Assembly: GCF_000968055.1 (NCBI RefSeq)
Contig: NC_022538.1
Span: forward strand, 755,499 to 779,498
Source: Alteracholeplasma palmae J233
GTDB taxonomy: Bacteria > Bacillota_I > Bacilli_A > Acholeplasmatales > Acholeplasmataceae
Length of the DNA: 24,000 nucleotides
Direction: 5' to 3'
In this document: in pieces, positions 1,798 to 18,708 of the stretch
Position numbering within the stretch: the stretch's first letter is position 1
Layout: each line of letters opens with the position of its first letter
The notes under the pieces: generated by a model
Told to the model about the DNA's origin: nothing
The model's database searches: none
What the model saw: only the letters and a program-made list of their open reading frames with translations
Made by a program: the position numbers and the translations under genes

Positions 1798-3294
1798 ATG
1801 GAACATTTCTCACAATGGTTTATTGAGTTTTTCAAAAAACTCTCACAAGACTTATGGGCTCTTTTATCTGGATTTTTTAAAGGTATCTATAACTTATTTA
1901 TAGGAAACCCAATTAATTATTTCAAAGATTTTAACGTACAATCAAAAAACTTCACTGCAGGAGACTGGGCATTATCAATTATGTTTATTACCATCTTTTT
2001 TGTAGTAGTAGTTTTACTCTTATTAGTGATTTACCAAATCATTAAAAGATATATAAGATTTACTAAAATAGAACAAGATAAGATTGATTTATTACATAGA
2101 CAACATCAACTTGAATTAAGACTAAAAAATGGTTCTATTCAAGCAAAAAACTCATCTATTTTTAATTCAAATCCTAAATCTAAAAAAGAAGCTCAAAATA
2201 AAAAAGGCAACAGATTTGTTAAATTATCTAATATTGATGAAAAATATAAATATAGTGTTCTAGCAACGCCTATGCTAGAAGAAGAAAAATTAAGTTTACC
2301 TCAACTAGTCACTAGATTTAGAAATTATTCAGCTTATGAACATAAACTATTTTATACTGAAAAAACGATTGCTATCTTCTTAGCAGGTATGGCCACATCT
2401 AAAACAATGATTCTAGAAGGTATCTCAGGTACTGGTAAAACCTCTTTACCATATGCCTTTGGTAAATTTATTTCACACGATTCAAGCATCATTTCTGTTC
2501 AGCCATCTTGGCGTGATAGATTTGAAATGATGGGATATTTAAATGAATTTACTAAAAAATTCAATGAAACTGAATTCTTAAGATCAGTCTATGAATCACT
2601 CTATAGAACAGATATTAATCTAATCGTATTAGATGAAATGAACCTTGCCAGAGTTGAATACTATTTCGCTGACTTTTTATCATTACTTGAACTTCCAAAT
2701 CCTGATGAATGGTTATTAGATTTAATCCCTGAACAAATTGTTGGGGATCCAGTTCAACTTAAAGAAGGTAAAATTAAAATTGCTCAAAACATCTGGTTTA
2801 TAGGAACAGCTAATAAAGATGACTCAACATTTGCAATTACTGATAAAGTATATGATAGAGCAGCTTCAATTGAAATGAATGATAAAGCACAAAGATTTGA
2901 TGCCCCTGAAACTAAGGCAATGAACCTTTCTTTTGACTACTTACAAAACCTATTTACTCAAGCAGAACAAAACCATTTTATTTCACCTAGTAATTTAGAT
3001 GCATTAGTAAAATTAGACACATATATTACTGAAAAGTTTGAGATTACATTTGGTAATCGTATTATGAAACAACTTAATACCTTTGTCCCAGTCTTCATGG
3101 CTTGTGGACAAGAAGAAGTAACTGGAATTGACTATATTATTGCTCGTAAAATTATCCGTAAGTTTGAAACACTTAACTTACCATTCTTACAAAAAGAATT
3201 ACAAGACCTTCTCCTTTTATGCGATAAACTATTTGGAAAAGATAAACTCATTGAAACTAAGAAATTAGTCAATAAATTCTTAAGACAAGTCTAG
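1798..3294 (+). CDS. Membrane-anchored McrB-family (AAA_5-type) AAA+ NTPase
   Basis: The ATG is 2 nt after the upstream stop, consistent with an operon. TM helix WALSIMFITIFFVVVVLLLLVIY. Walker A 'GISGTGKTS' (nt 2419-2445). 'SVQPSWRDRFEMMGYLN' parallels McrB 'QFHQSYSYEDFIQGYRP'. Walker B 'LIVLDEMNLARVEYYFADFLSLLE' parallels McrB 'IIDEINRANLSKVFGE..MLME'. 'IGTANKDDS' parallels McrB 'IGxMNTADRS', the NxxD guanine-specificity-like motif. Confidence 0.65.
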   Translation: MEHFSQWFIEFFKKLSQDLWALLSGFFKGIYNLFIGNPINYFKDFNVQSKNFTAGDWALSIMFITIFFVVVVLLLLVIYQIIKRYIRFTKIEQDKIDLLHRQHQLELRLKNGSIQAKNSSIFNSNPKSKKEAQNKKGNRFVKLSNIDEKYKYSVLATPMLEEEKLSLPQLVTRFRNYSAYEHKLFYTEKTIAIFLAGMATSKTMILEGISGTGKTSLPYAFGKFISHDSSIISVQPSWRDRFEMMGYLNEFTKKFNETEFLRSVYESLYRTDINLIVLDEMNLARVEYYFADFLSLLELPNPDEWLLDLIPEQIVGDPVQLKEGKIKIAQNIWFIGTANKDDSTFAITDKVYDRAASIEMNDKAQRFDAPETKAMNLSFDYLQNLFTQAEQNHFISPSNLDALVKLDTYITEKFEITFGNRIMKQLNTFVPVFMACGQEEVTGIDYIIARKIIRKFETLNLPFLQKELQDLLLLCDKLFGKDKLIETKKLVNKFLRQV

Positions 3295-10774: not shown

Positions 10775-12544
10775 ATGGAAATCACAGTATTAACAACGGA
10801 TTTAGTATATCAATCATTTATACTTGCTGCTAAGAATGTTATTAAAGAAAAAAAATTATTAAATGATTTAAATGTGTTTCCGGTTGCTGATAGTGATACA
10901 GGTAATAACTTAGCATCATTAATGGCATCTATTATTGAAAAAGCACAAAAAAGTGATAACTTAAATGATACATTAAATTCAATTTCTAATGCAGCAATCT
11001 ATGGTGCTAAAGGTAACTCAGGAATTATCTTTGCTCAATATATACAAGGTTTTTCTGAACAAGCAAGAAGTAATCAAATTACTATGGAAGAATTTAGTGT
11101 AAGGTTAGAAGAAGCTTTTCAAAGAGCATATGAGGCGATTTTACATCCAGTAGAAGGAACCATTATTACACTGATGCGAATTTTTTCTCAAACTGTAAAA
11201 AAATTATTGAATAAATCAGCTAATTTCGCTGATTTACTTAATAAAAGCTATGAAGAATTATTAATTGAGTTAGATAAAACACCTGAAAAATTACAAGTCT
11301 TAAAAGACAATAAAGTAATTGATGCAGGTGCTAAAGGATTTGTTTTATTTATTGAAGGATTTATAAAGGCTTTAGAAGGAACTGAAATAGAACTCTCTAA
11401 AGAATATATCTCTGAAATAAGTGAACAAAAAGGGCATATTGAAAAATCTAGTTTTAGATATTGTACAGAAGCATTAATTAAAAACGATCATAAAATGAGC
11501 GCAAGTGAAATTAGACAAGAACTCAGCCAATTAGGTGATTCATTAGTAGTCGCTAATACAAGTGATTACATTAGAGTTCATATTCATAGTGACAATCCAG
11601 AAAAAGTATTTAATACGCTCAGTCAAAAGGGTTTAATTGTTGAACAAAAAATAGATGATATGAAAAGACAATATGAAGTTGCGAATAAAAGAAAAAACGA
11701 TATTGCCTTAGTAACCGATTCTATTGCAGATTTACCAAAAGAACTAATTGATAAATATCAAATACATGTACTACCAGCAACCATTACTATTAATGAGATG
11801 ACATACTTTGATAAATTAAGTATCACTAATGAAAAGATTTATAAAAACATGGAAGAAAAAGATTTTTATCCATCTTCAAGTCAACCTAATATCAAGGTGA
11901 TAGAAAATTTACTAAAATTCTTAAATGAATATTACAAAGAAATCATTATTCTTAGCGTCTCTAGTAAAATGAGTGGGACATATCAAGTTTTTAGCCAAGT
12001 GGTAAAAAATTTAAAATTAGATAAAGTGACTTTAGTAGATAGCAAACGTAACTCAGGTGCTGAAGGACTATTAGTTTTAAAAACAGCGTTAATGATTGAT
12101 AATAAAATGAGTAAAGAAAAAATATTAGAAGAATTAGAAAAAGATATTCTAAAATCACAAATTTTAGTCAGCGTTAAAAATCTTAAATACATGGTGAGAT
12201 CAGGTAGACTAACAAAAACTAAAGGATTATTAGTTAAATTGTTAAATGTTAAACCAATTGTTAAAATTAATAACGAAGGTATTGGTGAAATTACAGATAA
12301 AGCATTTTCTATTAAAAAAGCGAATCAAAAGCTTTTGGATATGATTAGAAAAGTTCACCAAGAAAAAGAAATTATTTATTATAACATCGTCCATGCAGAC
12401 GCATTAGATAGAGTTAAAGAATATGAAAAAGAATTAATTTCTATTATAGGAACTAAACCCAATTATATTACAGAAATATCATCTGTTATCGCAATGAATT
12501 CAGGAATAGGTTCGATTGCGGTTTCATATATAACTAAAAAATAG
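10775..12544 (+). CDS. DAK2 (FakA-type kinase N-terminal and middle domains) fused to a DegV (FakB-type fatty-acid-binding) domain
   Basis: SD 'agaggt' precedes the ATG. N-terminal DAK2 motifs are 'DSDTGNNL' and 'GAKGNSGII'. The middle region 'FRYCTEALI...LGDSLVVANTSDYIRVHIHSDNPEKV' is like the FakA/YloV central domain. The C-terminal half is classical DegV: 'IALVTDSIADLPKELIDKYQIHVLP', 'SSSQPN', 'SVSSKMSGTYQ' and 'LVDSKRNSGAEG'. Confidence 0.75.
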   Translation: MEITVLTTDLVYQSFILAAKNVIKEKKLLNDLNVFPVADSDTGNNLASLMASIIEKAQKSDNLNDTLNSISNAAIYGAKGNSGIIFAQYIQGFSEQARSNQITMEEFSVRLEEAFQRAYEAILHPVEGTIITLMRIFSQTVKKLLNKSANFADLLNKSYEELLIELDKTPEKLQVLKDNKVIDAGAKGFVLFIEGFIKALEGTEIELSKEYISEISEQKGHIEKSSFRYCTEALIKNDHKMSASEIRQELSQLGDSLVVANTSDYIRVHIHSDNPEKVFNTLSQKGLIVEQKIDDMKRQYEVANKRKNDIALVTDSIADLPKELIDKYQIHVLPATITINEMTYFDKLSITNEKIYKNMEEKDFYPSSSQPNIKVIENLLKFLNEYYKEIIILSVSSKMSGTYQVFSQVVKNLKLDKVTLVDSKRNSGAEGLLVLKTALMIDNKMSKEKILEELEKDILKSQILVSVKNLKYMVRSGRLTKTKGLLVKLLNVKPIVKINNEGIGEITDKAFSIKKANQKLLDMIRKVHQEKEIIYYNIVHADALDRVKEYEKELISIIGTKPNYITEISSVIAMNSGIGSIAVSYITKK

Positions 12545-12556
12545 GAGGAATTGATT

Positions 12557-13339
12557 ATGTTTTTTGCAGTAACTGGAATTGCTTTATTTGTCTTCTTTTT
12601 AATTGCCTTTATCATTGGTCAAGTAAAGAAGAATAATGGTTTAATTGATATTTTTTGGGGACTAGGTTTTGTAGTAGTTGCCTTAACAGGACTTATCTAC
12701 AAAAATAACTACAGTCTATTATCATTAGTTATAGTTGGAGTAACGCTTTTATGGGGACTTAGACTAGGAATCTATTTATTTATACGTAACTGGAATAAAA
12801 AAGAAGACTTTAGATATGTTAAAATGAGAGAAAAATGGAAAACACATCTTAAAACTAAAGCCTTTTTTAAAGTCTACTTAACACAAGCGATTATATTATA
12901 TGTTGTTTCAATGCCAATTCAATTAACTTTATATTTTGATATAAAAGTTGATGAATTATTACAATATATATTATTAGGAGTAGGTGTATGCTTCTGGTTA
13001 ATTGGATATTTCTTTGAAGTTGTAGGAGATACTCAATTAAGAAGATTTATTAAAAATCCAAACAATAAAGGAAAAATTATTCAAACTGGTGTATGGAAAT
13101 ACACAAGACACCCTAATTACTTTGGTGAAGTAGTTATGTGGTGGTCAATCTTTGTAATCTCACTAGCTACTTTAAATATCAATGTGATATATGGTATTGT
13201 TAGTCCAATTATTATGACATTGTTATTATTATTTGTAAGTGGTGTACCTTTATTAGAAAAAAGATATAGAGATCATGCTGAATATCAAGAATATGCTAAA
13301 AAGACATCTATCTTTATTCCATGGTTTCCTAAAAAATAA
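12557..13339 (+). CDS. DUF1295 / steroid-5-alpha-reductase-like polytopic membrane enzyme
   Basis: SD 'aggagg' (12543-12548) lies 8 nt before the ATG at 12557. The TTG at 12551 used by the ORF track is too close to the SD. The product is multi-TM with '[19 protein letters not shown]', the RHPNYFGE motif of this family. Confidence 0.65.
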
Positions 13340-13351
13340 ATATTAAAAGAT

Positions 13352-13379
13352 AAAGCTCCTTAGTTCAAAAAGGAGCTTT
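13352..13379. terminator. Bidirectional rho-independent terminator between convergent genes
   Basis: A 10-bp stem, 'aaagctcctt' (13352-13361) paired with 'aaggagcttt' (13370-13379), is flanked by an A-run upstream and a T-rich run downstream. It lies between the 3' ends of the DUF1295-like gene and the recombinase gene. Confidence 0.7.
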
Positions 13380-13393
13380 ATTATTTATAATGG

Positions 13394-14302
13394 CTATAAT
13401 TTATTTCGATAATTAAATTTTGCTAGAACTTGGCGCTTTCTTTTATTTGTAACCTCAGTATAAATTTGAGTAGTAGAAATACTAGCATGTCCTAATATTT
13501 CTTGGACTGATCTTATATCTGCACCATTGGCTAGTAAATTAGTCGCAAACGTATGTCTTAAATAATGAGGAGTAGCAGAAGGATTAATTTTAGCTAAATC
13601 TCGATATTTAGAAAAAACATCTTCAATTGCATAAATTGACATTGGATTTAAATATCTATTTATAAAAACAGATGAATGATTCACTGTAAATGTGTTTCTT
13701 AGTTTAATAAAATTTTTTAACCTATCCCAAGTAATTTGAGATGAAATATATACTAATCTTTGTTTTCTTCCTTTACCATGAATGAGTATAGTATGTTCAT
13801 GATATATAATATCTTCAAGCTTTAAAGCAACAACTTCATGTATTCTCATACCAGTAGTAATAAGTAAATCTAAAATAGCGGCATCCCTTATAGATATAAA
13901 TTGATTAAAAGAAGACTTTGTATTTTCCAAAGATGAATCAATTACTTTTAAAAGATTAGAGACTTCCTTAACTGTGAGTGTTTTAGGAAGTCTTTTCTCT
14001 TTTTTAAAACTAAATTTTAGTTTAAGTAAAGGTGTTGATTTAATTAAATTATCTTCAAATAGACAATTATAAAACATATTAATAGCTATAAGTTTTCGTT
14101 TAATAGAAGTATCTTTTAAGTTGCGTTCATTTCTAAGATGATTTAAATAACTAATAATATTTCTTTTTGTAATATCCACTTGTTCAAAATTTACAAAGTC
14201 TACTAAGTCTGAGTAGTAAGCTTTTATAGTTTTTGAAGATAAATTCTTAGAGTTTTCTATCTTTTCTAGAAAATAATTGATTTGTTTCGTTGTTTTCGTC
14301 AT
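13394..14302 (-). CDS. Tyrosine site-specific recombinase (XerC/XerD-like integrase family)
   Basis: SD 'aaggag' precedes the ATG. The N-terminal SAM-like block is 'TIKAYYSDLVDFVNF'. The catalytic region has 'TTGMRIHEVVALKLEDI' (Arg I), 'HGKGRKQR' (Lys), 'HYLRHTFAT' (HxxR) and 'LGHASISTTQIYTEV' (His/Tyr nucleophile). Confidence 0.85.
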   Translation of the reverse strand: MTKTTKQINYFLEKIENSKNLSSKTIKAYYSDLVDFVNFEQVDITKRNIISYLNHLRNERNLKDTSIKRKLIAINMFYNCLFEDNLIKSTPLLKLKFSFKKEKRLPKTLTVKEVSNLLKVIDSSLENTKSSFNQFISIRDAAILDLLITTGMRIHEVVALKLEDIIYHEHTILIHGKGRKQRLVYISSQITWDRLKNFIKLRNTFTVNHSSVFINRYLNPMSIYAIEDVFSKYRDLAKINPSATPHYLRHTFATNLLANGADIRSVQEILGHASISTTQIYTEVTNKRKRQVLAKFNYRNKL

Positions 14303-14394
14303 GTAATATTCTCCTTAGGACAGTTTCGCCCTACTCAATTGTATCAAATAGTGATAATATATAGACAAAATTTATTTTTACTATATTTGGTATA

Positions 14395-14419
14395 AATAAT
14401 AACAAATTATTGGAGGGAA
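14395..14419 (+). repeat. Left arm of a perfect 25-bp inverted repeat (AATAATAACAAATTATTGGAGGGAA) containing the SD of the 14421 gene
   Basis: This is the exact reverse complement of 17410-17434. It ends 1 nt before the ATG at 14421. An extended -10-like 'TGgTATAAA' (14388-14396) abuts and overlaps its outer end. Confidence 0.9.
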
Positions 14420-14420
14420 A

Positions 14421-16187
14421 ATGAAAAAATATAAACTGGCAAATAGAACTAAAACATCTTTAAATATATTCTTTATGTTATTGTTTTCTATTGGAATCAC
14501 CTTCTCATATTTTTATAGTAATGAAAGTAGTAATTATGTAAAAATAATTGCTGTAATTTGTGAAATATCGGCAATGGCATATTTTGTTATTCCAACTATT
14601 ATTGGAAATATATATTATGATGAAAAATATATAAAAATATCGACTGATTTATTTACTGATAGAAAAGAGACTATTAAGTTTGTAATTGATGAATTATATA
14701 CTATATTAAAGAATAAAAATTTAACAAAAATCATTTCTATAAAAACAAAAGATCAAAGTGGTGTCGGAAAAACAGAACTATTAAGAAAAATTAGAGATAT
14801 ATTTTATAACAAAGAACTTGCTAAAAAATATCTATCTGATGACTTTTACAAGTGGACGTATATAAAGAAAAAGATAGGTGATGCACATCTTGTTGATTAT
14901 AATCCTGATACATTTAATTCAATACAATATAATTATCCAAAAACAATATTTAAAATAAATCTTTTACTAGTGGATAATATGCCAGTTTTTTACGGTGATA
15001 TTAATAAAGATAATATAATTGTTTATTGTAAAATTACATCCGAAGAAGAATCTGTTTTATCTAATATGACAGTTACTGATATTAAGACACTCTACTCTAA
15101 AAAATTCTACAGAGATTTATCTGACGAGGAGGCTAGTATTGTTTTTGAAATAACTGGTGGAAATGTAAAAAATATTAATAAAATTTTACATGATGAATCA
15201 ACATTTACTTCATTTATTAAAAACCACAGAACAATTGCTGAAATTGAGTTTACTATGCAAATTGGAGATTATAAAAAAGCAAAAGAAATGTTAGATAATT
15301 TAAGTAGTAACCCAGCATTTATTAGACAATTAAGATTAAATGTAGATTTGGAGTTTGAGTATAAATTTTTAGAGGCTGATTTAACCCACTTGCAAAATAA
15401 TTATGTCGAATCAGTTGAGATGTTAGAGGCCCTTTTATCAAATATAATAATAGTAAATGATGATTTAAAAGCCAACAAAATAATAGAAAAAATATCCCAT
15501 ATAAAAAAACATATGGGAAAATTTAAGGAGGCACTAAAGTACATTTCTTATTTAGATAAAAATGATTTTACTTTAAGATCTCTGAGTTTATTATTACTTT
15601 CTTACACACAATATGATAATGAAGAGTATTTAAAGGAGTTTCTAAATAGTATAGATTATATAGAAATCAATAAGATTACATCAAATCATTTTAATGATCC
15701 TTACAAAACTTATAAAGGAGTAGCATTGATTTACAATAATCTAAAAATGAATAAACATGAAGAGATTAGTTTTGAAAATGCACACTCGGTTATAAATAGC
15801 ATTATTCAAATATATGAAAAACATAATAGCAGATTTATCACTAATTGCTATTTTATTAAGGCAGAGTTTTACAGACACCAAAAAAGATATGATTATGCGA
15901 TAATCTACTACTCAAAATGTTTAGATATATATATAATGAATAATGACTTTGATATATACTCTCTTGTTTACTGTATGATCAGGTATATTGAGATAACACA
16001 ACATAAAGATTTTAAACTAATCAATAAGATAGACTTAGAAAAAATAAAGACCATATGTACTGATAAAAAAATGTCATACAATTTAAAAATAGCGCATCAT
16101 TTATCAGAAATTATTGATGGTGTGAATTCTGAATCACTGGTTGCAAGTAAACTTTTTTTTGATAAAAATATTTTCCTTATTCCATAA
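14421..16187 (+). CDS. Membrane-anchored P-loop NTPase (NB-ARC/STAND-like) with a C-terminal TPR-like helical-repeat region
   Basis: Two N-terminal TM helices (LNIFFMLLFSIGITFSYFY; IIAVICEISAMAYFVIPTIIG). The P-loop is 'KDQSGVGKTELLRKI' (nt 14757-14780; GVGKT as in NB-ARC proteins, but the first Walker-A Gly is replaced by Asp). A Walker-B-like 'INLLLVDNM' follows. 'FEITGGNVKNINKIL' sits in the position of the GxP/'GLPLAL' helix. The C-terminal ~300 aa have repeated Y/L/A-rich helical pairs typical of TPRs ('YDYAIIYYSKCLDIY'). Confidence 0.45.
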   Translation: MKKYKLANRTKTSLNIFFMLLFSIGITFSYFYSNESSNYVKIIAVICEISAMAYFVIPTIIGNIYYDEKYIKISTDLFTDRKETIKFVIDELYTILKNKNLTKIISIKTKDQSGVGKTELLRKIRDIFYNKELAKKYLSDDFYKWTYIKKKIGDAHLVDYNPDTFNSIQYNYPKTIFKINLLLVDNMPVFYGDINKDNIIVYCKITSEEESVLSNMTVTDIKTLYSKKFYRDLSDEEASIVFEITGGNVKNINKILHDESTFTSFIKNHRTIAEIEFTMQIGDYKKAKEMLDNLSSNPAFIRQLRLNVDLEFEYKFLEADLTHLQNNYVESVEMLEALLSNIIIVNDDLKANKIIEKISHIKKHMGKFKEALKYISYLDKNDFTLRSLSLLLLSYTQYDNEEYLKEFLNSIDYIEINKITSNHFNDPYKTYKGVALIYNNLKMNKHEEISFENAHSVINSIIQIYEKHNSRFITNCYFIKAEFYRHQKRYDYAIIYYSKCLDIYIMNNDFDIYSLVYCMIRYIEITQHKDFKLINKIDLEKIKTICTDKKMSYNLKIAHHLSEIIDGVNSESLVASKLFFDKNIFLIP

Positions 16188-17406
16188 ACAAGTCATTTAT
16201 AATGTAGGATGCTTGTTTTTTTGAAGAAATTTCATAGCACAGTGAACGTATTTTATTCTCATTAGGAAACTCTCTTGATATTAAGTAAATTAGTTCTGCA
16301 ACTTTATTTAAATCTCTAGTATTAAAATTATATCTAGCAATTTCTTGAGTTCCCAACCTTATTCCTGTTAATAACCTAGATTTTCTTTTATTTAGTGTTA
16401 TATTGAATTTTGTCGCATTAATATATAATATATCAGCCGTTTTCTCACTAGTTTCAATAAAAATTTGGTGTGTTTCACTATAAATATTTCTGTTAATTTT
16501 ACGTACAGTTAAACCTTTTTCTTCTAACAGTTTACCTAACAGGTTAGATGTCTCTATTATTTTATTTTGATAAGCTATTCCAATTTCTTTAAGTTCAATT
16601 AAAGCTAAAAAAAGTGAAGCAATATTATTAGGCTGAATATTTCTTAAATATGTTGGTGATATTGAAAAATCTATTTTTTCAATATAATCGTTGTTATTTG
16701 TCATAATTATCCCACAAGTTGGACCTGGGAGAGTCTTATGAGTTCCTCCAATAAGCAGTAAATTATCAACTAAATTCAAGGGGTTTTCTAATAGACCCGC
16801 ACCAATTAACCCCAAAGTTTGAGAGGCATCGTAAATAATTCCTTGATTAGAGGTTAATTTTATCTTTTTTATGTCTGGACTTTTTATTAAATCAGATTGG
16901 CATATAATAATAAATTCTATATCTTCATCTCTCAAAATCTGATTTAGAAGTGTATAGTCTATATCATAATTTACATAATCATATGGTATTGGTTTATAAT
17001 TAATCCCATAGTTTTCAAGTATTTTTGTTAAAGACGGATGCCCTCCCATATCTTTGGTTGTAATTAGTACTTTTTTTACATTTTTCAATAGGGACATTGC
17101 TAGTATAGAAAAACAATTCATTCCGGATAAGGTTCTACAATCAGTATATTTCACATTGTATATTTCTTTGCATATTCCAGATACTAGTTCCATTAACCGA
17201 TAAATATAGTCACTTCCAATGTTGTCTTTATCGATTATTCTTTTCTTATAACCTTGTATGTATTTACCTTCAAATTCTGATCGCAATCCTTGCTTAACAA
17301 AATCAGAAACATATGTTTCTGCAGCACATAATGGAATTTTAATATTATTGAACCTTGTATATTCTTTGTATAATTTTTTGAATTCATCTAGAAAACTAGT
17401 GCTCAT
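16177..17406 (-). CDS. Divergent serine-hydroxymethyltransferase-fold (fold-type I) PLP-dependent enzyme
   Basis: 'IPLCAAETYVSDFVKQGLRSEFEGKYIQGY' parallels SHMT 'LIASENxxSxxVxxAxGSxLTNKYAEGY'. 'LLLIGGTHKTLPGPTCGIIM' (nt 16721-16750, minus strand) parallels the SHMT PLP-lysine motif 'TTTTHKTLRGPRGG'. 'DMGGHPS' parallels 'SHGGHLTHG'. The canonical 'RYYGG' block is not recognisable. The SD lies inside the right IR arm. Confidence 0.7.
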   Translation of the reverse strand: MSTSFLDEFKKLYKEYTRFNNIKIPLCAAETYVSDFVKQGLRSEFEGKYIQGYKKRIIDKDNIGSDYIYRLMELVSGICKEIYNVKYTDCRTLSGMNCFSILAMSLLKNVKKVLITTKDMGGHPSLTKILENYGINYKPIPYDYVNYDIDYTLLNQILRDEDIEFIIICQSDLIKSPDIKKIKLTSNQGIIYDASQTLGLIGAGLLENPLNLVDNLLLIGGTHKTLPGPTCGIIMTNNNDYIEKIDFSISPTYLRNIQPNNIASLFLALIELKEIGIAYQNKIIETSNLLGKLLEEKGLTVRKINRNIYSETHQIFIETSEKTADILYINATKFNITLNKRKSRLLTGIRLGTQEIARYNFNTRDLNKVAELIYLISREFPNENKIRSLCYEISSKKQASYIINDLFME

Positions 17407-17409
17407 ACA

Positions 17410-17434
17410 TTCCCTCCAATAATTTGTTATTATT
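17410..17434 (-). repeat. Right arm of the perfect 25-bp inverted repeat (plus strand TTCCCTCCAATAATTTGTTATTATT) containing the SD of the 17406 gene
   Basis: This is the exact reverse complement of 14395-14419. It ends 3 nt before the ATG at 17406 on the minus strand. Confidence 0.9.
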
Positions 17435-17900
17435 AAGAGGAAACTTATTGAATTGATTATAGTTCCATTTGTCCTAAAGAATATATTGAAGTTGATCTCA
17501 AAAAGAATGACCGCAGATTAAAAGAATTATGTTCATATTAATGTAGAAAGTAGATATTTGCATTGGTTTAAGTAGAGTATCAAATTATTTTAGTATATCT
17601 AATTTATTAGGTTGATTAAAGTAGAAACTAATTATAGAGGATGATATTCTCAAACACCAAAGTGAAAAGTACTTCAGTTCTTTGTGATATAATAGAAATT
17701 AAGCTATCGGAGCACTTAGTAGAAGAAGGGTGAAAACATTAAAATTACTTGAGAATAAAATAGATACAACCAAAATGAAAAAGCCTTCATTTTTGATGGT
17801 CTTAACTGGAAGCAGTTATTCATATATAAGAGAAGGTGGTATATTAGTAGTCTCTATAGCATCATTAAAAGATTAAATATTATTATACTTAAATAGAAAA

Positions 17901-17929
17901 AAGGATATCTTCACATTTAAGATATCCTT
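17901..17929. terminator. Bidirectional rho-independent terminator
   Basis: An 11-bp stem, 'aaggatatctt' (17901-17911) paired with 'aagatatcctt' (17919-17929), has an A-run upstream and a T-run downstream. It lies just past the 3' end of the TetR gene. Confidence 0.7.
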
Positions 17930-17955
17930 TTGTAATATAAAGGTTATTTATAAAA

Positions 17956-18525
17956 TTATGCAAAGCTCTTAATAATAGATTCCAATAAATTATCAAGTTG
18001 TTCTTTACTAGCATAGAACTTAGGCTTAATTTGTGTATACATATCACACATTTGGAAAAATAATTCCATAGTAATAGAAGGTCTGATGAGTTTTGCTTCT
18101 AAACATGAGGTATATAATTTAATCATTGCAGGATATGAACCTTGATACAGGTTTAAAACATAATCTTTTATTTCTTTATTTAATCCAGAATAAACATATT
18201 CTTGAATCGATTCTTGGTAAGGATTTTCAGTAAAAGTATTAAAAGTAAACTTAAAGTAGTTCATGAGCTTATCATAGGCACTACAATCACTTTCTAAAAT
18301 TTTAACAACAGAACAAATCGCTTCATTGGCATGAAGTTTTAAAACCTCGGTTATTAAAATATCTTTACTTCCAAATATATTATAAATAGTTACTTGAGAG
18401 ACATGAGCTCTTTTTTTTATATCATCAATTGTAATATGATGAATACTTTTTTCTTTTAATAGTAACTTAGTAGCTTCTAAGATGTCATTTCTTTTTTTTA
18501 GCGTTCTTTCAATATGTTTTCCCAA
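17956..18525 (-). CDS. TetR/AcrR-family transcriptional regulator
   Basis: The HTH block is 'ITIDDIKKRAHVSQVTIYNIFGSKDILI'. I moved the start to the TTG at 18525 because GGAGG (rc of 18534-18538) lies 8 nt upstream of it. The ORF-track TTG at 18546 is upstream of that SD and has none of its own. Confidence 0.8.
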   Translation of the reverse strand: MGKHIERTLKKRNDILEATKLLLKEKSIHHITIDDIKKRAHVSQVTIYNIFGSKDILITEVLKLHANEAICSVVKILESDCSAYDKLMNYFKFTFNTFTENPYQESIQEYVYSGLNKEIKDYVLNLYQGSYPAMIKLYTSCLEAKLIRPSITMELFFQMCDMYTQIKPKFYASKEQLDNLLESIIKSFA

Positions 18526-18708
18526 TATAAACACCTCCGTTAACAATGTGAATTATAACATAAAAAAATAAATAAGTCTTTTAATATAGGCTTAAAGAAA
18601 TATGTAAAACAACTAAATCGTATTTATAATATGCTAATTATCTTCACATATTTGAATATAACTATAATAAAAGTTTTAATTGTGCTAAAATATATTTAGG
18701 TGAATCAA

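What the first reader, a model, noticed from the sequence alone, without database searches (positions are those of the whole stretch)
13394..17434. Recombinase-adjacent 3-kb two-gene cassette bracketed by a perfect 25-bp inverted repeat that carries both ribosome-binding sites: candidate invertible expression-swap element
- **Repeat:** AATAATAACAAATTATTGGAGGGAA (14395-14419) is exactly reverse-complementary to 17410-17434. Each arm sits directly in front of the start codon of one of two convergent genes (ATG 14421 on +, ATG 17406 on -) and includes its GGAGG.
- **Not chance:** A 25-nt exact inverted match 3 kb apart is not expected by chance, even in AT-rich DNA.
- **Recombinase:** A tyrosine recombinase gene is divergently placed 92 bp from the left arm.
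- **Consequence of inversion:** Recombination between the arms would invert 14395-17434 and precisely exchange which ORF is joined to the left upstream region and which to the right. The left region has an extended -10-like TGgTATAAA at 14388-14396. The right region is a 520-bp ORF-poor stretch with a TATAAT on the minus strand at 17461-17456.
- **Precedent:** This resembles single-expression-site switching by Xer-like recombinases in Mollicutes (the vsa/hsd loci of Mycoplasma pulmonis) and RecV-type switches in Clostridioides. The difference is that here two unrelated enzymes would be toggled rather than antigen variants.
- **Alternative:** The repeat may be a shared 5'-UTR operator or leader that co-regulates both genes without any inversion.
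Basis: partly seen in the sequence, partly recalled or inferred. Interest (0 to 1): 0.8.

Follow-up and report, generated by a model that had tools for sequence, protein, structure and literature searches.

The report
Recombinase-flipped two-gene toggle cassette
A 3-kb block holding two back-to-back genes in Alteracholeplasma palmae belongs to a widespread, apparently undescribed family of DNA segments that a neighbouring recombinase flips end-for-end, which probably decides which of the two genes sits behind a fixed promoter.

Summary
A perfect 25-nt inverted repeat (14395-14419 / 17410-17434) carries both Shine-Dalgarno sequences. It brackets two convergent genes whose 3' ends overlap, 92 nt from a divergent Xer-like tyrosine recombinase.

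Each arm has a 17-bp dyad core, AATAAT-AACAA-ATTATT. The same design (RATAAY-N5-ATTATY in inverted copies, with the spacer identical within a pair but different between lineages) flanks every homologous cassette recovered with both ends present. It also flanks unrelated convergent gene pairs beside all seven recombinase relatives examined (55-69% identity).

In four lineages, near-identical contigs from different samples carry the cassette in opposite orientations, with breakpoints inside the sites. Inversion is therefore shown for relatives and inferred for this locus.

The expression swap is plausible but unproven. The recombinase-proximal flank carries conserved promoter elements, and several distal flanks carry terminators.

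The cargo is a membrane-anchored STAND-like P-loop/TPR protein and an SHMT-like PLP enzyme.

The closest known systems are Mycoplasma vpma/vsp (Xer1/Mbr) and the Ureaplasma mba/UU172 switches. This is a new variant of that kind: a minimal two-gene, whole-ORF toggle with non-antigen cargo. No orientation data exist for A. palmae itself.

The parts
13394..14302 (-). Xer-like tyrosine recombinase (302 aa), the putative cassette invertase
   Evidence: - PF00589 at 3.9e-39, plus SAM-like N-terminal domains.
- Below the NCBIfam XerD and XerC cut-offs: 231 vs 329.6 bits and 225 vs 335 bits.
- Positions matching the catalytic R153, K177, H246, R249, H272 and Y281 are invariant in alignment A3; the catalytic assignment is by correspondence to E. 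coli XerD, from general knowledge.
- All 7 family members examined lie next to site-flanked convergent gene pairs.
14303..14394 (.). 92-nt recombinase-proximal flank, read as a divergent promoter region. It holds a recombinase-directed extended -10 (reverse complement of 14338-14346, TGATACAAT). Cassette-directed -10 candidates are GATAAT 14353-14358, TATATT 14382-14387 and TGGTATAAA 14388-14396.
   Evidence: - Alignment A4 of six recombinase-proximal intergenic regions shows the conserved block ATTATATCA, which is the reverse complement of TGATATAAT.
- In L023, L037, L041 and L043 a cassette-directed TTGMAA-N17-TAAAAT/CATAAT/TATAAT lies 8 nt before the site.
- The length is conserved at 92-95 nt in five of the seven loci.
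- Promoter activity is inferred, not measured.
14395..14419 (+). Left arm. It holds the 17-bp dyad core site AATAAT-AACAA-ATTATT (14395-14411) followed by the Shine-Dalgarno GGAGG (14412-16). Proposed recombination site.
   Evidence: -.
- The same site design bounds the inverted segments in relatives.
14421..16187 (+). Cargo gene A: a 588-aa membrane-anchored P-loop NTPase with a TPR-like C-terminal domain (STAND-like). In this assembly it sits at the recombinase-proximal side.
   Evidence: - No Pfam, NCBIfam or PADLOC hit.
- Walker A GVGKT and Walker B LVDN/VDD are visible in the alignments.
- The AF2 model has pLDDT 84: two N-terminal helices, an alpha/beta core and helical repeats.
- Foldseek hits Rap/NprR, a STAND-TPR protein (6mfv) and MalT domain III.
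16177..17406 (-). Cargo gene B: a 409-aa SHMT-like PLP-dependent enzyme, convergent with gene A and overlapping it by 11 nt
   Evidence: - PF00464 at 1e-21.
- Sub-threshold for true SHMT (153 vs 335 bits) and for fluorothreonine transaldolase.
- PDB SHMT hits reach E=1.5e-26.
- The GGTHKTLPGP motif keeps the Lys, which I take to be the PLP-binding lysine of SHMT from general knowledge.
17410..17434 (-). Right arm. It is an inverted copy of the core site (17418-17434) plus the Shine-Dalgarno (CCTCC 17413-17417 on the + strand).
17435..17955 (.). Distal flank: a 520-nt stretch with no ORF of 60 aa or more. A terminator-like hairpin of the upstream TetR gene lies at 17899-17931.
   Evidence: - ORF list.
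- No Rfam match.
- Terminator scan.
- It has a TATAAT (17461-17456, minus strand) 21 nt outside the arm.
- It lacks the -10-like hexamer found 7-8 nt from the site in recombinase-proximal flanks.

Best explanation
Region 14395-17434 is an invertible two-gene cassette.

**Proposed mechanism**
- The adjacent Xer-like tyrosine recombinase binds the two inverted 17-bp dyad sites (AATAAT-AACAA-ATTATT).
- It exchanges strands in or around the asymmetric 5-nt spacer and flips the 3-kb segment.
- Each site is fused to a Shine-Dalgarno sequence and start codon, and the cassette has no internal promoter space or internal terminator.
- The flip therefore decides which complete ORF is joined to the promoter(s) in the fixed 92-nt recombinase-proximal flank.
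- The other ORF faces the distal flank and is transcribed, if at all, mainly as antisense read-through.
- In the sequenced orientation the STAND-like NTPase gene occupies the expression site.

**Shown**
- The repeat and its anatomy.
- Conservation of the site design, the recombinase family and the architecture.
- Inversion at such sites in four related lineages.

**Inferred**
- That this particular locus still flips.
- That this recombinase is the enzyme.
- The position of strand exchange.
- That flipping swaps expression.
For: 1. **The repeat is exact and far beyond chance**.

2. **The site design is conserved around homologous cassettes.**
   - Every homologous NTPase/SHMT-like cassette recovered with both ends present has RATAAT-N5-ATTATY sites in inverted orientation just upstream of both genes. 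These are L001/L004/L005, L009/L014, L010, L012/L015/L019/L020, L013, L016 and L017, down to about 24% identity for the NTPase gene.
   - The spacer is identical within each pair and differs between lineages: AACAA, CAAAT, TGCTG, AGCTG, CTGTA, TCTTA, ATCTA, ACCCT.
   - The exact motif is otherwise almost absent from these loci.
   - Conserved dyad arms plus a pair-matched asymmetric spacer are what a tyrosine-recombinase core site needs. An operator has no such need.

3. **Opposite orientations are seen directly, with breakpoints inside the sites.**
   - L015/L012 versus L020/L019, at 99-100% identity. A second module in the same locus, with its own spacer CTCTT, is also flipped in L020.
   - L023 versus L024-26.
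   - L041 versus L040.
   - L043-45 versus L046-47.

4. **The recombinase family travels with this architecture.**
   - 7 of 7 members examined at 55-69% identity lie next to a convergent gene pair with overlapping 3' ends, bracketed by such sites fused to the Shine-Dalgarno sequence.
   - Five of them sit 92-95 nt away from the pair.
   - The cargo varies.
   - More distant recombinases (32-38% identity) accompany the GATAAT-type cassettes.

5. **Promoter evidence favours the recombinase-proximal flank.**
   - It has a -10-like hexamer 7-8 nt from the site in 6 of 6 loci.
   - Four of these have a full -35/-10 promoter.
   - Intrinsic terminators abut the opposite flank in L015, L013 and L022.

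6. **Internal promoters are unlikely.** The site-to-ATG distance is 9-11 nt here, which excludes a promoter inside the cassette.
Against: - **No orientation data for A. palmae itself.** The only other contig carrying this cassette (Logan SRR29904083) has the same orientation as the window.
- **Limited scope.** The rest of the genome could not be searched, so further copies of the site, or a second Xer, are unknown.
- **Promoter calls are consensus-based.** In 27% GC DNA such matches are near chance level (50 found against 43.7 expected).
- **A distal promoter is possible.** The distal flank has a TATAAT 21 nt from the arm, and L022's distal flank has a -10-like hexamer at the proximal-type position. 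In that case both genes would always be transcribed.
- **The pairing argues for co-function.** The NTPase/SHMT-like pairing is conserved over deep divergence, which suggests the two proteins work together. That fits awkwardly with strictly exclusive expression.
- **Distant relation to some cassette recombinases.** The window recombinase is only 32-38% identical to those beside the most similar cargo cassettes.
Confidence: 0.75

Rival explanations
1. The arms are a shared operator or leader. A dimeric regulator binds the dyad in front of both genes and co-regulates them, and this locus never inverts.
For: - The core is a 6-5-6 dyad typical of helix-turn-helix dimer operators.
- It overlaps the likely transcription start or 5'UTR of both genes.
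- The conserved gene pairing suggests co-function.
- A TetR gene lies 520 nt away.
- The half-site GATAAT resembles Fur-box half-sites, at a different spacing (from general knowledge).
Against: - No regulator gene is conserved next to the cassettes, whereas a tyrosine recombinase recurs.
- Spacers vary between lineages but are always identical within a pair, and identity runs beyond the dyad: 25 nt here, 45 nt in L023, at least 87 nt in L009. An operator does not require either.
- Relatives are found flipped exactly at these sites.
- A dual role, as recombination site and also regulator-bound, is not excluded.
Confidence: 0.07
2. The element is a locked or fossil switch. It descends from an invertible cassette but no longer flips in A. 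palmae, so both genes are fixed in the sequenced orientation.
For: - Both available assemblies show the same orientation.
- The cassette-directed promoter that sits 8 nt from the site in relatives is displaced here by about 30 nt of extra sequence.
Against: - The arms are perfectly identical over 25 nt.
- The recombinase ORF is intact with all catalytic residues.
- Both cargo ORFs are intact.
- Two assemblies are too few to judge orientation frequency.
Confidence: 0.12
3. The inverted sites mark a mobile module, like the Xer-dependent pdif modules of Acinetobacter plasmids. Their main role would be to move the cassette between replicons, with inversion a by-product.
For: - The cassette occurs in unrelated genomic contexts and in distant taxa: Acholeplasmatales, Lachnospiraceae, Erysipelotrichaceae and Eubacteriales.
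- The neighbourhoods are rich in IS elements and defence-type genes.
- Site types and cargo types are recombined across lineages.
Against: - The one context difference found at a site edge (L001 versus L004) is an IS66 insertion with an 8-bp target duplication, not a site-specific junction.
- Integrating a one-site circle would give direct repeats, not inverted ones.
- The recombinase sits at a fixed 92-95 nt from the cassette, and the site is fused to the Shine-Dalgarno sequence. Both point to an expression switch.
- No empty site or excised form was seen.
Confidence: 0.04
4. The repeat is a chance match or a simple duplication of a ribosome-binding region, and any inversions in relatives come from RecA-dependent homologous recombination or misassembly.
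For: - The DNA is AT-rich.
- Assemblers can break or misjoin at inverted repeats. Contigs L009, L010 and L014 end exactly in the repeat.
Against: - Simulated windows reach at most 19 nt against the observed 25 nt.
- In L015/L020 the shared identity at the breakpoints is only about 18 bp. That is shorter than typical assembly k-mers (the contig names seen here give k87-k141) and, from general knowledge, too short for efficient RecA recombination.
- Each orientation is backed by two independent assemblies.
- The dyad motif is conserved across cassettes whose proteins are only about 24-27% identical.
Confidence: 0.02

Closest known systems
Mycoplasma agalactiae vpma / Xer1 and M. bovis vsp / Mbr single-expression-site switching (PMC2268961)
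   Same: - An Xer-like tyrosine recombinase gene lies next to the locus.
- The recombination sites lie in the 5' untranslated region just upstream of the start codons (-1 to -72 in vpma).
- Inversion links a complete silent ORF to a promoter that stays outside the inverted DNA.
- The host is a Mollicute.
   Different: - vpma/vsp are families of about six or more paralogous surface lipoprotein genes that share 5'UTR and signal-peptide sequence.
- Here there are exactly two unrelated, non-lipoprotein genes, convergent with overlapping 3' ends.
- The conserved repeat here is essentially a 17-bp dyad plus the Shine-Dalgarno sequence.
- The family is found mainly in gut Firmicutes, not only in Mollicutes.
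Ureaplasma parvum mba/UU376 and UU172/UU171 alternating expression by inversion (PMC3047005)
   Same: - Two oppositely oriented neighbouring genes are expressed alternately after inversion at short inverted repeats.
- Xer-type recombinases are suspected.
- The UU172 repeat quoted in that paper contains GATAAT-TTAA-ATTATC, a very similar dyad.
   Different: [quoted passage not shown]
- The cargo there is surface antigens.
- The dyad spacer is 4 nt, not 5.
- The recombinase had not been identified in that paper.
Phage Mu G segment / Gin, P1 C segment / Cin, e14 Pin and the R64 shufflon / Rci (from general knowledge)
   Same: - A roughly 3-kb invertible segment holds convergently arranged alternative genes.
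- It is flanked by short inverted repeats, with the invertase gene next door and the promoter outside.
   Different: - Gin, Cin and Pin are serine recombinases that use 26-bp sites and an enhancer.
- Those switches exchange variable C-terminal parts of one protein (tail fibre or pilin) through in-frame fusion.
- They do not exchange two complete unrelated ORFs.
Invertible promoters: fimS/FimBE, C. difficile RecV switches, Bacteroides Mpi invertons
   Same: - Inversion between short inverted repeats, usually by a tyrosine recombinase (Mpi is a serine recombinase, from general knowledge).
- It produces ON/OFF heterogeneity in a clonal population.
   Different: - There the flipped DNA is a few hundred bp that contains the promoter or leader.
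- Here the promoter appears fixed, and 3 kb of coding DNA flips.
Housekeeping XerC/XerD-dif, and Acinetobacter pdif modules (from general knowledge)
   Same: - The recombinase is Xer-like in sequence.
- The inner part of the site (ATAA...TTAT) recalls dif arms.
- pdif modules are gene modules bracketed by inversely oriented Xer sites.
   Different: - The recombinase scores well below the XerC and XerD equivalog cut-offs.
- The site is 6-5-6, not 11-6-11.
- Only one recombinase gene lies next to the cassette here.
- No evidence of module transfer was found.

Membership tests
Tyrosine-recombinase invertible DNA element | A pair of inverted repeats bounds the segment | tested here: met
   An exact 25-nt inverted repeat lies at 14395-14419 / 17410-17434. 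It is far beyond chance.
Tyrosine-recombinase invertible DNA element | A tyrosine recombinase with an intact catalytic set is available, usually adjacent | tested here: met
   - PF00589 at 3.9e-39.
- R153, K177, H246, R249, H272 and Y281 are present and invariant in the family alignment.
- The gene lies 92 nt from the left arm.
Tyrosine-recombinase invertible DNA element | Core-site anatomy: two inverted binding half-sites around a short asymmetric spacer that is identical in both partner sites | tested here: met
   - AATAAT-AACAA-ATTATT appears in both arms.
- Every complete site pair found in relatives shows conserved half-sites with a pair-identical, lineage-specific spacer.
- Binding and cleavage positions were not measured.
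Tyrosine-recombinase invertible DNA element | Both orientations exist in a population | not testable with these tools
   - For this locus there are no reads, and two assemblies show one orientation.
- For relatives the feature is met in four lineages.
vpma/vsp-type single-expression-site switch (Xer1/Mbr) | The recombination site lies in the 5'UTR directly upstream of each switchable ORF | tested here: met
   The arms end 1 and 3 nt before the start codons and include the Shine-Dalgarno sequence. Compare RS -1 to -72 in PMC2268961.
vpma/vsp-type single-expression-site switch (Xer1/Mbr) | A single active promoter lies outside the inverted DNA | tested here: inconclusive
   - There is no room for a promoter inside the cassette.
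- Conserved promoter elements lie on the recombinase-proximal flank.
- A distal promoter is not excluded, and the promoter scan is uninformative in this AT-rich DNA.
vpma/vsp-type single-expression-site switch (Xer1/Mbr) | The cargo is a multigene family of paralogous variable surface lipoproteins | tested here: not met
   There are two unrelated genes: a STAND-like NTPase/TPR protein and an SHMT-like PLP enzyme. Neither shows a lipoprotein signal or repeats.
Housekeeping XerC/XerD-dif chromosome dimer resolution | The recombinase reaches the XerC or XerD equivalog score | tested here: not met
   - TIGR02225 scores 230.9 against a cut-off of 329.6, and TIGR02224 scores 225.4 against 335.15.
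- The same holds for the eight relatives tested.
- Fast-evolving Mollicute orthologues could also fall short, so this alone is not decisive.
Housekeeping XerC/XerD-dif chromosome dimer resolution | A single 28-bp dif site (11-6-11) at the replication terminus, and conserved housekeeping synteny | tested here: not met
   - Two inverted 6-5-6 sites lie 3 kb apart.
- The family members share no synteny except the adjacent cassette.
- The terminus position and the presence of another Xer in the genome could not be tested.
Invertible promoter (fimS / RecV / Mpi type) | The promoter or leader lies inside a short invertible segment | tested here: not met
   The segment is 3,040 bp and is filled by two complete ORFs that start 1-3 nt after the arms.
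Gene-altering programmed inversion / shufflon (hsdS, Mu G, R64) | The inverted repeats lie inside coding sequence, so protein parts are exchanged | tested here: not met
   - The arms end before both start codons here.
- In relatives L023 and L037 the repeat does extend into the first 3-5 codons.
- Milman et al. (PMC9881135) do not describe this type.

The most novel reading that the evidence does not exclude
This locus may be one member of a large, so far undescribed class of whole-gene toggle invertons in Firmicutes and Acholeplasmatales.

- A dedicated clade of Xer-like invertases sits at a fixed distance of about 93 nt from a convergent gene pair with overlapping 3' ends.
- The 17-bp dyad recombination sites are fused to the ribosome-binding sites.
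- One flip would swap two complete, unrelated genes at a single expression site while transcribing the loser as antisense.
- The pairs are typically a large STAND/TPR-type NTPase or another large uncharacterised protein against a small-molecule-modifying enzyme (SHMT-like, glycosyltransferase, methyltransferase).
- The neighbourhoods are rich in defence-type genes, which suggests phase-variable conflict or surface-modification systems.
Probability: 0.55. Interest if true: 0.8.

Novelty: new variant of a known kind. Interest (0 to 1): 0.74.

Why it matters
**A different design from catalogued switches**
- Systematic inverton surveys have looked for flipped promoters or for repeated gene fragments (as summarised in PMC9881135).
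- A switch that exchanges two entire unrelated genes using only a 17-25-bp repeat would escape both search designs.

**The family appears widespread**
- Recombinase relatives at 53% identity or more filled the whole 120-row hit list.
- All seven examined show the same design.

**It is easy to test**
- The site, enzyme, promoter flank and cargo are compact and well defined.
- Natural flipped variants already exist in metagenomes.

**Possible payoffs**
- It would add a layer of heritable heterogeneity in gut Firmicutes and in Acholeplasma.
- It would raise the question of why a STAND-like sensor NTPase and an SHMT-like enzyme should be alternatives.
- It would offer a small orthogonal recombinase/site pair for synthetic toggles.

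Tried and rejected
- **Genome-wide 25-mer test.** It was not possible. The one genome-contig scan went to cassette homologues and did not return A. palmae. Within the window there are only the two copies.
- **Exact-protein look-up of the SHMT-like gene.** Nothing is on record.
- **PADLOC defence models.** No hit for either cargo protein.
- **Rfam on 13300-18700.** Only sub-threshold chance hits, so no known RNA lies in the 520-nt distal flank.
- **Leader hairpin idea.** The dyad folds at -0.6 kcal/mol, z = -0.03, so it was rejected.
- **Promoter scan.** It was uninformative in AT-rich DNA: 50 found against 43.7 expected.
- **Apparent recombination junction at the site edge (L001 versus L004).** It turned out to be an IS66 insertion with the 8-bp target duplication GATTATCC, so it is not evidence for module mobility.
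- **Viral contigs.** No cassette homologue and no close recombinase relative. The system is not obviously phage-borne.
- **First chance test.** It was confounded by palindromes and homopolymers. It was redone requiring at least 4 G/C per arm and at least 100 nt between arms.
- **Fur-box resemblance of GATAAT half-sites.** The spacing is wrong (6-5-6 rather than 7-1-7), so it was kept only as a remark.
- **Literature searches**. They found the Mollicute precedents but no description of this cassette family. Absence from the held library is not proof of novelty.

Full report
**1. The observation**

The window is 27% GC. It comes from Alteracholeplasma (Acholeplasma) palmae J233: the 588-aa ORF is 100% identical to a protein of that genome, on a 1,554,229-bp contig.

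- The sequence at 14395-14419, AATAATAACAAATTATTGGAGGGAA, is the exact reverse complement of 17410-17434. The match continues imperfectly to 43 nt at 81%.
- Each arm contains GGAGG and ends just before a start codon: ATG 14421 on the + strand and ATG 17406 on the - strand.
- The two ORFs are convergent and overlap by 11 nt: 14421-16187 (+, 588 aa) and 16177-17406 (-, 409 aa).
- A 302-aa tyrosine recombinase (PF00589 3.9e-39, with SAM-like N-terminal domains) is encoded divergently at 13394-14302, 92 nt from the left arm.
- The longest exact inverted repeat in the window is 25 nt, counting only arms with at least 4 G/C and at least 100 nt apart. In 100 simulated windows the mean was 14.1, sd 1.4, maximum 19.

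**2.

The first 17 nt of each arm form a dyad, AATAAT-AACAA-ATTATT. The pattern RATAAT-N5-ATTATY occurs only at these two places in the 24 kb, against 0.13 expected.

**3. The cargo**

- **Gene A (588 aa).** It has no Pfam, NCBIfam or PADLOC match.
  - Alignments show a Walker A (GxGKT) and a Walker B (hhhVDD) motif.
  - The AlphaFold model (pLDDT 84) shows two N-terminal hydrophobic helices, an alpha/beta core and a long helical-repeat domain.
  - Foldseek matches Rap/NprR-type TPR receptors, a STAND-TPR protein (6mfv) and MalT domain III.
  - I read it as a membrane-anchored STAND-like NTPase with a TPR sensor domain.
- **Gene B (409 aa).** It is a divergent SHMT-fold PLP enzyme.
  - PF00464 scores 1e-21.
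  - It scores 153 bits against a cut-off of 335 for true SHMT, and is also sub-threshold for fluorothreonine transaldolase.
  - PDB SHMT hits reach E=1.5e-26.
  - The THK motif, which by general knowledge of SHMT carries the PLP-binding lysine, is present.

**4. The cassette is a conserved unit that always carries its own inverted sites**

Homologues of gene A are rare. Wherever context could be read, the SHMT-like gene is convergent with gene A and overlaps it. This holds in pig and human gut metagenomes and in Lachnospiraceae, Eubacteriales and Erysipelotrichaceae MAGs.

Every cassette with both ends present is flanked by exact GATAAT-N5-ATTATC sites in inverted orientation, just upstream of both genes.

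| Locus or lineage | Spacer |
|---|---|
| Window | AACAA |
| L001 | CAAAT |
| L009 / L014 | TGCTG |
| L010 | AGCTG |
| L012 / L015 / L019 / L020 | CTGTA |
| L013 | TCTTA |
| L016 | ATCTA |
| L017 | ACCCT |

- The half-sites are conserved even where the NTPase is only about 24-27% identical.
- The 5-nt spacer differs between lineages but is identical in the two arms of every pair.
- Identity between arms often runs beyond the dyad: 25 nt here, about 30 nt in L001, 32 nt in L016 and at least 87 nt in L009.
- Contigs L009, L010 and L014 end exactly in the repeat, as expected when a repeat reaches the assembler's k-mer length.

Conserved dyad arms plus a lineage-specific, asymmetric, pair-matched spacer are the signature expected of a tyrosine-recombinase core site. 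Two independently evolving operators would not be expected to show it.

**5. Direct evidence of inversion in relatives**

- **L015/L012 versus L020/L019.** These contigs come from different samples and are 99-100% identical.
  - In L020 and L019 the segment between the two CTGTA sites is reversed relative to its flanks in L015 and L012.
  - For L020 both flanks were compared. L015 5106-5505 matches L020 6115-5716, L015 5488-8667 matches L020 2553-5733, and L015 8650-10246 matches L020 2570-970.
  - For L019 only the left-flank junction is shown.
  - The junction sequences show a clean reciprocal exchange inside the 17-bp site.
  - Each orientation is backed by two independent assemblies.
- **Second module in the same locus.** A 330-aa unknown gene and a methyltransferase are again convergent. 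They are bracketed by sites with a different spacer (CTCTT), and this module is independently flipped in L020.
- **Three further cases lie beside close relatives of the window recombinase.**
  - L023 versus L024-26: 2,769 nt are reversed at 100% identity with colinear flanks.
  - L041 versus L040: 947-3325 matches 6939-4562 at 99.96%.
  - L043-45 versus L046-47: the recombinase-proximal gene is the 888-aa gene in the first group and the methyltransferase in the second.

**6. The recombinase family**

- The window enzyme and eight relatives all score 220-250 bits against the XerC and XerD equivalog models, whose cut-offs are 330-335.
- Hits at 53-69% identity filled the entire 120-row list.
- I examined seven members: the window, P0125, P0135, P0177, P0206, P0190 and P0160.
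- All seven lie next to a convergent gene pair with overlapping 3' ends, bracketed by inverted RATAAY-N5-ATTATT sites that run directly into a Shine-Dalgarno sequence.
- In five of them the recombinase is divergent and 92-95 nt away.
- They share no other synteny.

The cargo varies:

| Locus | Gene pair |
|---|---|
| Window | NTPase / SHMT-like |
| L022 | SHMT-like 528 aa / 835 aa |
| L043 | methyltransferase + SHMT-like / 888 aa |
| L021, L041 | GT2 glycosyltransferase / 447-455 aa |
| L037 | 1197-aa AAA_16-like / GT2 |
| L023 | pentapeptide-repeat protein / 386 aa |

The GATAAT-type cassettes have their own, more distant recombinases at 32-38% identity: L016, L017, L015, and L004 behind an IS66 insertion.

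The association of enzyme, site design and architecture is therefore systematic. It argues against this being simply the housekeeping dif recombinase. I could not check whether A. palmae has another Xer.

**7. Where the promoter is**

- The arms leave 1-3 nt before the start codons, so no promoter fits inside the cassette.
- Alignment of six recombinase-proximal intergenic regions shows a conserved block, ATTATATCA.
  - Its reverse complement, TGATATAAT, is an extended -10 pointing at the recombinase gene.
  - In the window the block is ATTGTATCA at 14338-14346.
- In L023, L037, L041 and L043 a cassette-directed TTGMAA-N17-TAAAAT/CATAAT/TATAAT ends 8 nt before the site.
- The window and L022 have extra sequence between that block and the site. 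They still carry a -10-like hexamer 7 nt from the site: TATATT at 14382-14387 here, and TAAAAT in L022.
- Distal flanks mostly lack such an element. Several carry an intrinsic terminator within 10-25 nt of the site: L015, L013 and L022.
- In the window, the TetR terminator lies about 465 nt out, and a TATAAT lies 21 nt from the right arm.

The pattern fits one main expression site on the recombinase side. Read-through would run antisense across the other gene, because the 3' ends overlap and no terminator separates them. This step is inference. The consensus promoter scan is at chance level in this DNA.

**8. Comparison with known systems**

- **Closest in mechanism: vpma/Xer1 of M. agalactiae and vsp/Mbr of M. 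bovis.** They have an adjacent Xer-like recombinase, sites in the 5'UTR at -1 to -72, and inversion that links a silent ORF to a unique promoter (PMC2268961).
- **Also close: the Ureaplasma mba/UU376 and UU172/UU171 switches.** Two opposed neighbouring genes alternate. The repeat quoted in that paper contains GATAAT-TTAA-ATTATC, a strikingly similar dyad (PMC3047005).
- **Membership in the vpma/vsp family fails on cargo.** There is no paralogous lipoprotein family here, only two unrelated genes.
- **Architecture.** It is closest to the Mu G segment, but with a tyrosine rather than a serine recombinase and whole-ORF rather than in-frame exchange.
- **It is not an invertible promoter.**
- **It is not a gene-altering inversion of the type surveyed by Milman et al.** That paper does not mention such cassettes.

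I found no description of this family in the held literature.

**9. Verdict**

- The repeat is real.
- The element is very probably an invertible two-gene cassette operated by the adjacent recombinase. Confidence is about 0.75-0.8 for competence to invert, and lower, about 0.55-0.6, for a strict expression swap.
- It belongs to a widespread family that appears undescribed.
- Still missing are orientation and transcript data for A. palmae itself, and any knowledge of why these gene pairs should be alternatives.

Noticed in passing
L015:10230-12052 (also L012:6384, L020:970): A second invertible module lies in the same locus. It holds a convergent 330-aa unknown gene and a SAM methyltransferase, bracketed by sites with their own spacer (GATAAT-CTCTT-ATTATC). 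It is flipped independently of the NTPase/SHMT-like cassette in L020. A single recombinase gene lies next to both modules (L015:12229-13137).
   Followed up: partly
L004:3345-6180 (compare L001:11470): An IS66-family element (128-aa and 534-aa ORFs) is inserted into the outer half of the right recombination site. It has the 8-bp target duplication GATTATCC and separates the cassette from its recombinase gene.
   Followed up: yes
L007:207-3086 and L011:1-1274: The NTPase gene is truncated to its C-terminal 338-343 aa, next to a Mu-type transposase. The left site is lost, while the SHMT-like gene and the right site survive. This looks like a decayed cassette.
   Followed up: partly
L009 both ends (1-87 and 3087-3173); L010 and L014 ends: Whole contigs consist of just the cassette and end inside the inverted repeat. 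In L009 the repeat is perfect for at least 87 nt, which equals the assembly k. In that lineage the repeat includes about 65 nt of upstream, promoter-side sequence on both sides.
   Followed up: partly
Loci L021, L022, L001, L012, L040: The cassettes sit among defence or conflict-type genes: ThsB-like TIR, PNP_UDP_1-STALD, a FokI-like nuclease, a DNA methylase with MTaX1, a KAP NTPase, AAA-ATPase_like/PDDEXK_9, a PBECR4 nuclease and HTH-DUF3990. The 447-aa cargo gene of L021 has a weak CAP12/Pycsar TIR hit (E=2.9e-4).
   Followed up: no
window 17435-17955: A 520-nt stretch lies between the right arm and the TetR gene. It has no ORF of 60 aa or more, and the longest is 48 aa (17730-17876) with no Pfam hit. 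It has no Rfam match. Its origin is unexplained and could be a decayed gene.
   Followed up: partly
window 10775-12544: A single 589-aa ORF fuses a FakA-like Dak2 domain and middle domain to a DegV (FakB-like) domain. It looks like a fatty-acid kinase with its catalytic and binding subunits in one polypeptide.
   Followed up: no
PMC3047005, sequence quoted in its Discussion: The Ureaplasma UU172 inversion repeat contains GATAAT-TTAA-ATTATC. It has the same half-sites as the sites found here, with a spacer one base shorter. This hints that Mollicute Xer-like invertases share a recognition motif.
   Followed up: no
Distal flanks of window, L022, L023, L037: The sequence just outside the distal site (TTTCCTCTT, TTTGCCTCA, TTTCCTTAA, TTTCCTTCA) mirrors the Shine-Dalgarno side (the reverse complement of GGAGGGAAA is TTTCCCTCC). 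The distal site is therefore a longer dyad than the proximal one. The Shine-Dalgarno-like bases may be part of the recombinase-binding arm.
   Followed up: no
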